Position numbers: made by a program | Assembly (NCBI RefSeq): GCF_002854065.1 | Contig: NZ_CP024147.1 | Direction: 5' to 3' (one strand) | DNA length: 64,000 nt | Source: Escherichia coli | GTDB taxonomy: Bacteria > Pseudomonadota > Gammaproteobacteria > Enterobacterales > Enterobacteriaceae | Shown here: positions 3,001 to 6,000 of the stretch, piece by piece | Layout of the letters: every line of letters starts with the position of its first letter | Position numbering within the stretch: the first letter of the stretch is position 1

Positions 3001-6000
3001 CGACCGTTTCCAGCAGCTGCGTGTCGATAAATTTGAAACCCAGGCTACCCAGACCATAAGAACCGATAGCGAACGCGGAGATCAGACCTTTACGCTCCGG
3101 GAACCATTTCACGCAGTTAGAGAGCGTCAGCAGGTAACCCGCGCCATCCGCCAGACCGACCAGCACACCGGCGCTTAACCACAGCATCATCAGGTTGTCA
3201 GAATGCGCTGTCAGGAAGAACCCTAATCCCAGCAAAATGCCGGAAGCGATGGTGACGCGTTTAACACCAAAACGTTCCTGCAATTTGCCCGCAACAGAAG
3301 ACGAAATTGCCAGCCCCAGACTTAACAAGCCGAAAGAGAAAGCGACCTGGCTTACCGGCGCATCCAGCTTGGCGGAAAGCGCGCCGTTAAACAGGCTCCA
3401 GGTATAAACCGACCCCAGCGCAAACTGGGTAATGATAGTACCGATGAGTGTCAGCCAGCGGGTACGCTGATAATTTGAAGGTGTCATGGCAGTATTCCTG
3501 CAGTAATAAAAAGGAAAAATCTCTGCCGACAACCATAACGAAGTGCACTTTATGCCTGGGGAAAAACGGCATGAAATGCCATCAGAACGGAATGAAATGC
3601 CTTAGTTCAGGAATGAATGACGCGACAATTATTCACCAAATTTATTATTTGGTAAGTTAGCACCCACTATCGCCACAACTATTGTTATTCAATGGTTTCA
3701 ATTGTGATTGTTACGTTAAAATCTGGCACTAACCCCCATCGTATACAGATAATCGCTATTGTTAGTGGTATTTTCTGCCTGAGATAGCGCGGCATAGGCG
3801 GCAATATTTTGATTGAGCAACATATCAGCGCCTACGGTGACATCCAGCCAGTTGCCGTTCTGGTTTGTCGCCGTCATCCGGCTCAGGCCTGATTGCGCCT
3901 TCCAGATATTCTCGCCAAATTGCTGGTTATAGCTGATTTGCGCCCAGGGTCGGAGATCGCCAAGCCGGGAGTCAACACGCCAGCCTAAGGTACTCACGCT
4001 GGCATGCCATAACGGATCGGTCAGCGTGGTAGTACTGTCGCCAAACTCGTTATACATCGAGGTGGTTGTGCCATCGTAATGTAATGCCGCGACCGGGCCA
4101 GTTGTAACCTGTTCATATAAAGGAAAATTCCAGCCCATACTCATACTGCTGGTCACATCCACAGGGGTTTCTTCCGCCAGATTGACTTCCAGTCCCAGCG
4201 CCCTTTGGCTACTTTGAATACGTTGCGACAAAATATCGTTGTAATCAGGTTGATGATCACTATCCCAGGTGTAACGCTCTGTGGAATGCCCGGGTTGCGT
4301 ATCAACGATATATTCTTGTTGCCAGGCGTAAGCTGTGTTGAGAAAAAAGGCACTGATTACCACACTCGCCAGCAGGCTTAGCTGCCAGCGACCACCGCTT
4401 TTTTTTATGATCATTAACACGACTCCAGGGAAGAGCCGAATTCGGCAATATTATTGTCATTGTATGAAGGATATCGGGCATAGTAGCCCTGTATTAAATA
4501 TTGACTTTTTCACCGATGCGTCAAGAAAAGCGGCTGAAATTTTTACGATCGGGTACATAGCGAGGGAAAGTATGGAACGTTGCGGCTGGGTGAGTCAGGA
4601 CCCGCTTTATATTGCCTACCATGATAATGAGTGGGGCGTGCCTGAAACTGACAGTAAAAAACTGTTCGAAATGATCTGCCTGGAAGGGCAGCAGGCTGGG
4701 TTATCGTGGATCACCGTCCTCAAAAAACGCGAAAACTATCGCGCCTGCTTTCATCAGTTCGATCCGGTGAAGGTTGCCGCAATGCAGGAAGAGGATATCG
4801 AAAGACTGGTACAGGACGCCGGGATTATCCGCCATCGCGGGAAAATTCAGGCAATTATTGGTAATGCGCGGGCGTACCTGCAAATGGAACAGAACGGCGA
4901 ACCGTTTGCCGACTTTGTCTGGTCGTTTGTAAATCATCAGCCACAGGTGACACAAGCCACAACGTTGAGCGAAATCCCCACATCTACGCCCGCCTCCGAC
5001 GCCCTATCTAAGGCACTGAAAAAACGTGGTTTTAAGTTTGTCGGTACCACAATCTGTTACTCCTTTATGCAGGCATGTGGGCTGGTGAATGATCATGTGG
5101 TTGGCTGCTGTTGCTATCCGGGAAATAAACCATGATTAGGGAAGCGCAACGTTCAGAACTCCCCGCGATCCTCGAACTGTGGCTGGAAAGTACAACCTGG
5201 GGCCATCCCTTTATAAAAGCGAATTACTGGCGCGAGTGCATTCCGCTGGTGCGGGATGCCTATCTTGCCAACGCACAAAACTGGGTCTGGGAAGAAGACA
5301 GTAAGCTTCTCGGTTTTGTCAGCATTATGGAAGGCCGATTTCTGGCAGCGATGTTTGTCGCACCGAAGGCCGTCAGGCGCGGTATTGGTAAGGCGCTGAT
5401 GCAGTATGTGCAACAGCGCCATCCCCATCTGATGCTGGAGGTTTATCAAAAAAATCAACCGGCGATAGATTTTTACCAGGCGCAGGGTTTTCACATTGTC
5501 GATTGCGCATGGCAGGATGAAACCCAACTACCCACCTGGATTATGAGCTGGCCGGTGGTTCAAACGCTGTAAGTGTCAGTTCCGGACCGTTGTATTTTTC
5601 TAGCCATGCCAGCGCCGTATTACCCGCACAGCCATTCCCCAGCCGCGAGCTGGGGAGATCTTTGGTCAGCACGTTGACTGCGCCGTTTTTACAAATACCG
5701 TCAGCGGTTAAATCCAAATCCGGCCATGCCCCTTCGTGAATACAAATCACGCCAGGTTTAATTCCCTCGCTAATGACCGCTCCGGCAAGAATTTGCCCGC
5801 GTGCGTTCCACAGCCGAACAGTATCGCCATCTTGTATGCCGCGCGCCTGGGCATCGTCAGGATGAATGGTGACAGGCTCACGGTTTGCCACCGCGTACAA
5901 TTCGCGCAGAGAACTGTAATTCAGCTGGCTGTGCAGACGATGCGCCGGATGAGCAGAAAGTACCTGTAACTGTTCCGGTTCGGCATTGCCCTGCCATTCG

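What the first reader, a model, noticed from the sequence alone, without database searches (positions are those of the whole stretch)
3571..3601. Direct repeat GGCATTTCAT-N11-GGCATTTCAT upstream of yhjX
This matches the architecture reported for the YpdA/YpdB pyruvate-responsive two-component control of yhjX (established knowledge, from memory). It supports the yhjX call and suggests the regulatory circuit is conserved in this strain.
Basis: partly seen in the sequence, partly recalled or inferred. Interest (0 to 1): 0.3.

Follow-up and report, generated by a model that had tools for sequence, protein, structure and literature searches.

The report
Known YpdB operator upstream of yhjX
The repeat is real and is the already-published binding site where the pyruvate-responsive regulator YpdB (PyrR) switches on the E. 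coli transporter gene yhjX, so it is an ordinary, well-understood feature.

Summary
Observation confirmed. On the minus strand, GGCATTTCAT occurs at 3601..3592 and 3580..3571, separated by the 11-nt spacer TCCGTTCTGAT. The proximal copy ends 84 nt upstream of the yhjX ATG (3487).

Window 3624..3567 (minus strand) matches, 58 of 58 bases, the yhjX promoter fragment used to measure YpdB binding (PMC4847170, Table 1). That fragment covers the DNase I-protected region. The distal copy is published site A (high affinity, required). The proximal copy is site B (cooperative, transient).

One part cannot be checked here: ypdA/ypdB are not in the window, although 5422 of 5426 complete E. coli genomes carry them.

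Extra details found:
- The conserved unit is a 12-13-mer, GCATTTCAT[T/G]CC. Its 5' G varies (G/T).
- A third box, CGTCATTCATTCC (3622..3610), lies in exact 21-nt register and is conserved across 28 enterobacterial promoters.
- A conserved -10 (TATGGT, 3537..3532) puts sites B and A at about -56..-47 and -77..-68 (inferred).
- The same motif pair follows LytS/LytTR genes in Paenibacillus, Chromobacterium, Romboutsia, Spirochaeta and Limosilactobacillus, ahead of MFS, CstA or LrgA transporter genes. Its similarity to the B. subtilis LytT site was already noted in PMC5626966.

Interest is low.

The parts
3592..3601 (-). YpdB site A: the promoter-distal GGCATTTCAT. It is the high-affinity site and is required for any binding. 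The conserved unit extends to the 13-mer GGCATTTCATTCC (3601..3589).
   Evidence: Exact motif. It is the copy replaced in the 'A bs' oligo of PMC4847170 Table 1, and binding was abolished when A was mutated. The 3' TCC is invariant in 28 enterobacterial promoters, and the 5' base varies between G and T.
3581..3591 (-). The 11-nt spacer TCCGTTCTGAT. Its first 3 nt (TCC) are conserved as part of box A. The remaining 8 nt (3588..3581) vary between species.
   Evidence: Spacer conservation is 0.72 bits, against 2.0 bits for the boxes.
3571..3580 (-). YpdB site B: the promoter-proximal GGCATTTCAT. It has lower affinity and is occupied cooperatively and transiently. The conserved unit extends to GGCATTTCATGCC (3580..3568).
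   Evidence: Exact motif. It is the copy replaced in the 'B bs' oligo. Kinetics are from PMC4847170. It is invariant in the sampled E. coli alleles.
3567..3624 (-). The full published YpdB-binding fragment, which covers the DNase I-protected region of PyhjX.
   Evidence: 58/58 identity to the native part of the SPR oligonucleotide (PMC4847170 Table 1 and methods). The 58-mer is identical in 3599 of 5426 E. coli genomes and has 1-2 mismatches in 1723 more.
3610..3622 (-). Box C: a third, degenerate box, CGTCATTCATTCC. Its TTCATTCC core is exactly 21 nt upstream of the same core in site A. It is a candidate auxiliary YpdB contact (inferred).
   Evidence: TTCATKCC occurs at 3617, 3596 and 3575, in exact 21-nt register. 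Box C averages 1.65 bits over 28 species, against 0.32-0.49 bits in the adjacent sequence, and the scan pattern did not require it. It lies inside the published protected fragment. It is not sufficient for binding without site A.
3545..3556 (-). A degenerate inverted copy of the motif, GGCATAAAGTGC. It differs at 2 positions from GGCATGAAATGC, the reverse complement of GCATTTCATGCC. It overlaps the -35/spacer region. Its function is unknown.
   Evidence: It is exact in 8 of 28 enterobacterial promoters and has 2 or fewer mismatches in 12 of 28, always 14 nt after site B.
3532..3537 (-). Inferred -10 hexamer, TATGGT. The matching -35 position (3560..3555, CCCAGG) is a poor fit, as expected for an activator-dependent promoter.
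   Evidence: A TAnnnT hexamer lies 32-33 nt after site B in 28 of 28 enterobacterial promoters. TTATAAT sits at the same distance in Paenibacillus and Spirochaeta loci. The simple consensus scan did not find it. The assignment is an inference.
3523..3525 (-). Invariant CAG at the expected transcription start, 7-9 nt after the -10. The start site is predicted, not measured.
   Evidence: Invariant columns in the 28-species alignment. This is an inference.
2285..3487 (-). yhjX, the regulated gene. It encodes a 400-aa MFS transporter of the oxalate/formate-antiporter subfamily and is implicated in pyruvate uptake.
   Evidence: Translation. RefSeq annotation of identical DNA. Pfam MFS_1. NCBIfam TIGR00890 scores 472 bits against a cut-off of 375. 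Its role in pyruvate uptake is from PMC7730263.

Best explanation

Shown in the literature: extracellular pyruvate activates the histidine kinase YpdA, which activates YpdB. Activated YpdB first binds the distal repeat (site A, 3601..3592; KD about 1 nM, slow on and off). A second molecule then binds the proximal repeat cooperatively (site B, 3580..3571; KD about 21 nM, fast on and off). That second molecule provides the surface that recruits RNA polymerase. Rapid release from site B then clears the promoter, giving pulsed expression of the transporter YhjX.

Shown here: the window carries this operator base for base, in the right place and orientation, ahead of an intact yhjX.

Inferred here: the promoter's -10 is TATGGT (3537..3532) and the -35 is poor. 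This places site B at about -56..-47 and site A at about -77..-68, just upstream of the -35 region, as at other LytTR-activated promoters.
For: - Two exact copies of the motif, 11 nt apart, on the yhjX strand.
- 58/58 identity to the SPR-tested, DNase I-protected fragment.
- Published binding order, affinities and site-A dependence (PMC4847170).
- Pyruvate as the stimulus, and yhjX as the only direct YpdB target.
- The locus is the E. coli chromosomal yhjY-yhjX intergenic region, present in 5422 of 5426 complete genomes.
- Both boxes are invariant in the sampled E. coli alleles, apart from the first base of site A.
- In 27 other Enterobacteriaceae species the pair sits 80-90 nt before the yhjX ATG.
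- The boxes carry 2 bits per position, against 0.3-0.7 bits in the spacers.
- In Paenibacillus and Chromobacterium the same pair lies directly between ypdAB homologs (56-63% identical) and a yhjX homolog.
Against: - Nothing contradicts the assignment.
- ypdA/ypdB are not in the window, so the trans half of the circuit was not observed for this strain.
- The transcription start and the -10 are inferred from conservation only. The generic sigma-70 scan did not call this promoter.
- The original 2013 paper could not be read.
- The species set used for the footprint was chosen by requiring both 9-mer cores. Core conservation is therefore forced, and only the flanks and box C are unbiased.
Confidence: 0.96

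Rival explanations
1. The functional operator is larger than the published two-box site. It would be an array of three direct boxes at 21-nt phase (C at 3622..3610, A, B), plus a vestigial inverted box at 3556..3545. Box C would help load or stabilise YpdB, or bend the DNA. The inverted box, which overlaps the -35/spacer region, would contribute to shut-off.
For: - TTCATKCC occurs three times in exact 21-nt register.
- Box C is conserved at 1.65 bits per position in 28 species, although the scan did not select for it.
- Box C lies within the DNase I-protected fragment.
- PMC4847170 says flanking nucleotides influence expression in vivo.
- The inverted box is exact in 8 of 28 species at a fixed offset.
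Against: - SPR resolved only two binding events. Mutating site A abolished binding even though box C and site B were intact.
- Box C lacks the 5' GCAT half of the motif.
- The inverted box is degenerate in E. coli (2 mismatches) and absent in about half the genera.
- Box C is absent from the Firmicute loci, where site A starts 5 nt after the ypdB stop codon.
Confidence: 0.4
2. The repeat is a chance or neutral tandem duplication with no regulatory role.
For: An exact 10-mer repeat at period 21 arises in 7.5% of shuffled windows, and another one exists in this window at 60079.
Against: - Identity to an experimentally bound and mutated site.
- Invariance across E. coli and across more than 25 other enterobacterial species, while the spacers diverge.
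- Recurrence next to LytS/LytTR genes in other phyla.
Confidence: 0.01
3. The repeats are bound by the paralogous pyruvate regulator BtsR (YehT) rather than by YpdB.
For: The two systems form a network and influence each other's targets (PMC7730263 and PMC5552118).
Against: - The BtsR motif ACC[G/A]CT[C/T]A has no match anywhere in the 3488-3715 intergenic region.
- The yjiY BtsR-site oligo served as the control fragment in the YpdB SPR study, and its sequence is unrelated.
Confidence: 0.02

Closest known systems
YpdB (PyrR) binding site in the E. coli K-12 yhjX promoter (Fried, Behr & Jung 2013; Behr, Heermann & Jung 2016, PMC4847170)
   Same: It matches over the whole 58-nt protected fragment, including both GGCATTTCAT boxes, the 11-nt spacer and the flanks. 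The K-12 intergenic allele differs from the window at only 2 of 228 positions, both outside the operator.
   Different: Nothing differs in the operator. The window's yhjX allele encodes 400 aa, against 402 aa in K-12. This is a common variant (1203-nt genes, against 1209 nt).
B. subtilis LytT boxes upstream of pftAB (Charbonnier et al. 2017, PMC5626966)
   Same: It has two direct boxes with a 21-nt period (13 nt plus an 8-nt gap), and both are required. It is bound by a LytTR regulator of a pyruvate-sensing LytS-type system and controls a pyruvate transporter. The authors already note the sequence similarity to the YpdB site. The 13+8 description fits the conserved unit GGCATTTCATKCC plus 8 variable nt found here.
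   Different: The target is an LrgAB-type transporter, not an MFS transporter. The regulator genes lie next to the target. I could not read the B. subtilis sequence itself.
AgrA sites at S. aureus P2/P3, and LytTR operators in general
   Same: They are pairs of 9-11-nt repeats separated by 11-13 nt, immediately upstream of a weak -35, and are bound by two LytTR domains with DNA bending (general description in PMC4847170).
   Different: The consensus sequence is different, and the systems sense a quorum signal rather than a metabolite.
BtsR (YehT) site in the btsT/yjiY promoter
   Same: It belongs to a paralogous E. coli LytS/LytTR pyruvate system and has a direct-repeat architecture.
   Different: The motif is different (ACCGCTCA type) and is absent from the yhjX promoter.

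Membership tests
YpdB/PyrR operator of PyhjX | Direct repeat of GGCATTTCAT | tested here: met
   Two exact copies on the minus strand at 3601..3592 and 3580..3571. The motif is as stated in PMC4847170.
YpdB/PyrR operator of PyhjX | 11-nt spacer between the two 10-mers (21-nt period) | tested here: met
   3591..3581 is 11 nt. The published oligo shows the same spacing.
YpdB/PyrR operator of PyhjX | Sequence identity with the experimentally protected and bound fragment | tested here: met
   58/58 match, with none in 100 shuffles.
YpdB/PyrR operator of PyhjX | Located upstream of yhjX, on the same strand | tested here: met
   Site B ends 84 nt before the yhjX ATG at 3487. The distance is 80-90 nt in 27 other enterobacterial species.
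YpdB/PyrR operator of PyhjX | Cognate ypdA/ypdB genes present in the same genome | not testable with these tools
   They are not in the 64-kb window. They are present in 5422 of 5426 complete E. coli genomes, so their presence here is very likely but was not observed.
YpdB/PyrR operator of PyhjX | YpdB binding and pyruvate-dependent induction in this strain | not testable with these tools
   This needs EMSA/SPR and a reporter assay. It is shown for the identical K-12 sequence in PMC4847170.
LytTR-type response-regulator operator (general) | Two 9-11-nt repeats separated by 11-13 nt, adjacent to the core promoter | tested here: met
   Repeat geometry. The general definition is from PMC4847170. 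The position relative to the -10 is inferred from conservation.
BtsR/YehT operator | ACC[G/A]CT[C/T]A repeats | tested here: not met
   No match in 3488-3715. The nearest hit is at 2581, inside yhjX.

The most novel reading that the evidence does not exclude
The yhjX operator may be more than the published two-box site. In Enterobacteriaceae it looks like a phased array: box C (3622..3610), site A and site B, 21 nt apart, plus an inverted relic (3556..3545) over the -35/spacer region.

The recognition unit GCATTTCAT(KCC) appears to be an ancient specificity of the pyruvate-sensing LytS/LytTR lineage. It has stayed the same across Proteobacteria, Firmicutes and Spirochaetes while the regulated pyruvate transporter was swapped between three unrelated families (MFS YhjX, CstA and LrgA). 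The regulator and target genes are adjacent outside Enterobacteriaceae, which suggests that adjacency is the ancestral arrangement.

The similarity between the E. coli and B. subtilis sites has already been published, so only the breadth, the transporter swapping and box C would be new.
Probability: 0.45. Interest if true: 0.35.

Novelty: already known. Interest (0 to 1): 0.12.

Why it matters
Nothing new follows for E. coli biology.

The side observations could help people who study LytTR regulators or build pyruvate biosensors:
- a conserved third box
- a 12-13-nt recognition unit rather than a 10-nt one
- a fixed distance from the operator to the -10
- the same operator reused in front of three transporter families in several phyla

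Tried and rejected
- My first translation of yhjX was off by one base. It was corrected.
- The original 2013 paper (PMC3562098) is not held. Full-text searches for an '11-bp' statement or for a mapped transcription start of yhjX found nothing. The spacing therefore rests on the published oligo, and the start site on conservation.
- The generic promoter/terminator scan did not call the yhjX promoter. It found only an unrelated weak match at 3655..3628, and no yhjY terminator.
- Chance was considered and rejected (see rival explanations).
- BtsR binding was rejected because its motif is absent.
- Of the 120 loci from the genome-wide pattern scan, 82 showed no link to a LytS/LytTR system or to a yhjX/cstA/lrgA gene. 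I treat them as chance or coding-repeat matches and did not examine them individually. Weak LytTR-like hits far from the motif (L095, L114, L115, L117) were not counted.
- In Clostridium arbusti (L020) the pair follows ypdAB, but no same-strand gene lies downstream. This is unexplained.
- No complete E. coli genome is colinear with the first 25 kb of the window (best: 97% coverage, 98.6% identity, in 6 pieces). The exact strain was therefore not identified, and its ypdAB could not be inspected.

Full report
**The observation**

Reading 3300-3900 and searching for the motif shows two exact copies of GGCATTTCAT. Both are on the minus strand, at 3601..3592 and 3580..3571, and they are separated by the 11 nt TCCGTTCTGAT. 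The only long ORF downstream on that strand starts with ATG at 3487 and stops at 2285. It encodes a 400-aa protein beginning MTPSNYQRTRW. The proximal repeat therefore ends 84 nt upstream of that start.

**Is it more than chance?**

The repeat on its own is only mildly unusual. An exact 10-mer repeat at period 21 appeared in 15 of 200 dinucleotide-preserving shuffles. The window also holds another one at 60079, which lies in a region whose best E. coli matches carry a YadA-like adhesin gene.

The comparison with published data is what settles the question. Table 1 of Behr, Heermann and Jung 2016 (PMC4847170) lists the yhjX promoter oligonucleotide used for surface plasmon resonance with YpdB. 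The authors say it covers all nucleotides protected in the DNase I footprints of Fried et al. 2013. Its 58 native bases match window 3624..3567 (minus strand) with no mismatch, and none of 100 shuffles gave a match.

**Identity of the locus**

The 401 bases around the site are E. coli chromosome. They occur in 5422 of 5426 complete genomes, between genes annotated yhjY and yhjX. The protein scores above the curated cut-offs for the oxalate/formate-antiporter MFS subfamily and for NCBI's 'L-lactate MFS transporter' model. It also matches Pfam MFS_1.

**What the site does (from the literature)**

- YpdA/YpdB, now named PyrS/PyrR in RefSeq, is a LytS/LytTR two-component system that responds to extracellular pyruvate. 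yhjX is its only known direct target.
- In the 2016 study, the phospho-mimetic YpdB-D53E bound the fragment in two steps. One interaction had high affinity and slow kinetics (KD 1.2 nM). The other had about ten-fold lower affinity and fast kinetics (KD 21 nM).
- Transverting the distal copy ('A bs' oligo) abolished all binding. Transverting the proximal copy ('B bs' oligo) left a single binding event.
- Site A is therefore window 3601..3592 and site B is 3580..3571.
- The authors' model is sequential, cooperative loading in the order A then B, RNA polymerase recruitment through the B-bound molecule, and rapid clearance in the order B then A, which produces pulsed expression.
- YhjX, BtsT and CstA together account for pyruvate uptake in E. 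coli (PMC7730263).

**Conservation within E. coli**

- The 58-mer is identical in 3599 of 5426 genomes, carries 1-2 mismatches in 1723, and more in 73.
- In seven intergenic alleles sampled across the identity range, site B and positions 2-10 of site A are invariant. The first base of site A is G in the window, K-12 and one other allele, and T in the four most divergent alleles.
- In strain DX6 an IS1 sits inside site B, flanked by a 9-bp target duplication (TGGCATTTC). This moves site A about 0.8 kb away from the promoter.

**Conservation beyond E. coli**

I scanned one genome per species for the E. coli-invariant core GCATTTCAT-N12-GCATTTCAT.

- In 27 Enterobacteriaceae loci the pair lies 80-90 nt before a yhjX ortholog that is 81-98% identical.
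- I aligned those promoters with the window. Both 9-mer cores were required by the scan, so only the other positions are informative.
- The 3' extensions TCC (site A) and GCC (site B) are invariant, while the 5' G is not (about 1.1 bits).
- The 8-nt gaps between boxes are poorly conserved (0.5-0.7 bits).
- The conserved unit is therefore a 12-13-mer, GCATTTCAT[T/G]CC. This matches the 16/21 identity of the two tandem 21-nt units reported by the repeat finder.

**A third box and an inverted relic**

Upstream of site A, the sequence CGTCATTCATTCC (3622..3610) is conserved at 1.65 bits per position, against 0.32 bits further upstream. Its TTCATTCC core is exactly 21 nt from the same core in site A, which in turn is 21 nt from TTCATGCC in site B. 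This 'box C' lies inside the published protected fragment. It cannot support binding without site A, because the A-mutant oligo kept box C intact and did not bind.

Between site B and the -10, eight species carry GGCATGAAATGC, a perfect inverted copy of the box, at a fixed offset of 14 nt. The window has GGCATAAAGTGC (3556..3545), which differs at two positions. I did not establish a function for either element.

**Core promoter (inferred)**

- A TAnnnT hexamer lies 32-33 nt after site B in all 28 promoters. In the window it is TATGGT (3537..3532).
- An invariant CAG (3525..3523) follows it, at the distance expected for a transcription start.
- TTATAAT sits at the same distance from the proximal box in the Paenibacillus and Spirochaeta loci.
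- With +1 at about 3524, site B spans roughly -56..-47, site A -77..-68 and box C -98..-86.
- The -35 position reads CCCAGG, a poor match, as expected for an activator-dependent promoter.
- The generic sigma-70 scan did not find this promoter, and I found no published start site.

**Cross-phylum finding (noticed in passing)**

Eleven of the non-enterobacterial hits are not chance.

- In five Paenibacillus species, ypdA (56-63% identical to E. coli) and ypdB (58-61%) are followed 5 nt later by the motif pair. A YhjX homolog (46-48% identical, MFS_1) follows about 150-190 nt after that.
- Chromobacterium subtsugae has the same gene order.
- Romboutsia weinsteinii has ypdAB (52-53%), then the pair, then a CstA-family gene.
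- A Spirochaeta MAG has a LytS/LytTR pair (35%), then the motif pair, then a CstA-family gene.
- Two Limosilactobacillus species have a LytS/LytTR pair (32-35%), then GGCATTTCAT-N11-GGCATTTCAT, then an LrgA-family gene.
- In Clostridium arbusti, the eleventh locus, the pair follows ypdAB but no obvious target gene lies downstream.

The same operator thus fronts three unrelated transporter families, all of them linked to pyruvate uptake in the literature. Charbonnier et al. 2017 had already remarked that the YpdB site resembles the B. subtilis LytT site at pftAB, which consists of two 13-nt boxes 8 nt apart. The principle is therefore known. The breadth and the gene-order pattern may not be.

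**What remains open**

ypdA/ypdB are not in the window. tblastn found only weak AraC-family matches to YpdC. They are present in 5422 of 5426 complete E. coli genomes. No complete genome is colinear with the window, so I could not inspect this strain's copy. The claim that the whole circuit is conserved in this strain is therefore very probable but only half observed.

**Verdict**

Interest is low. The side observations listed above are modest leads.

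Noticed in passing
window 3610-3622 (minus strand): A third box, CGTCATTCATTCC, lies in exact 21-nt register with YpdB sites A and B. 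It is conserved at 1.65 bits per position in 28 enterobacterial yhjX promoters, and the scan pattern did not require it. It lies inside the published DNase I-protected fragment, but it is not described as a site in the papers I could read.
   Followed up: partly
window 3545-3556 (minus strand): A degenerate inverted copy of the YpdB box, GGCATAAAGTGC, overlaps the -35/spacer region. It is an exact inverted copy (GGCATGAAATGC) in 8 of 28 enterobacterial species, at the same offset from site B. Its function is unknown.
   Followed up: partly
loci L029, L031, L035, L081, L119 (Paenibacillus); L113 (Chromobacterium); L070 (Romboutsia); L054 (Spirochaeta MAG); L023, L090 (Limosilactobacillus); L020 (Clostridium arbusti): The same motif pair, at the same spacing, lies immediately downstream of LytS/LytTR genes in other phyla. 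It sits ahead of an MFS YhjX homolog, a CstA-family gene or an LrgA-family gene. Regulator and target are adjacent there, unlike in E. coli. Similarity to the B. subtilis LytT site has been published (PMC5626966), but this breadth may not be.
   Followed up: partly
window 3601; loci L003-L006: The first base of site A is polymorphic in E. coli. It is G in the window and K-12, and T in the four more divergent alleles sampled. It also varies between G and T across genera at both sites. The published 10-mer therefore overstates the 5' end and understates the conserved 3' [T/G]CC.
   Followed up: yes
L007 1640-2415 (E. coli strain DX6, NZ_CP126345.1): An IS1 is inserted inside YpdB site B, with a 9-bp target duplication (TGGCATTTC). 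This separates site A from the yhjX promoter by about 0.8 kb and should uncouple yhjX from YpdB in that strain.
   Followed up: partly
window 3488-3503 (minus strand): The region around the Shine-Dalgarno sequence and the start codon, TGCAGGAATACTGCCATG, is highly conserved across genera. It can form a short GCAG/CTGC hairpin that presents the GGA. This could be a post-transcriptional control element, but it was not tested.
   Followed up: no
window ~460-1230 and 1420-1956: IS1 transposase ORFs (516-791 and 710-1213, plus strand) lie just downstream of lpfA, the long polar fimbria major subunit gene (1420-1956, minus strand). The best-matching genome (THO-010) has lpfB there with no IS1, so the IS probably interrupts the lpf operon in this strain.
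   Followed up: partly
window 60040-60160: A period-21 (7-codon) coding repeat. The best E. coli matches to window 56000-64000 carry a YadA-like family (trimeric autotransporter adhesin) gene next to mtlD, mtlR and lldP. This is the window's only other exact 10-mer repeat at period 21.
   Followed up: partly
window 1-25000: No complete E. coli genome in the collection is colinear with this stretch. The best match has 97% coverage and 98.6% identity, in 6 pieces. The strain is therefore not represented, and it carries mobile-element differences.
   Followed up: no
window 40950-40959 (minus strand): A third exact GGCATTTCAT, with no partner box within 20-22 nt even when mismatches are allowed. 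It is most likely a chance match.
   Followed up: partly
L020 5298-5327 (Clostridium arbusti): The motif pair follows ypdAB homologs, but no same-strand gene lies within 1.2 kb downstream. The neighbouring ORFs are on the opposite strand. The target of this operator is unclear.
   Followed up: no
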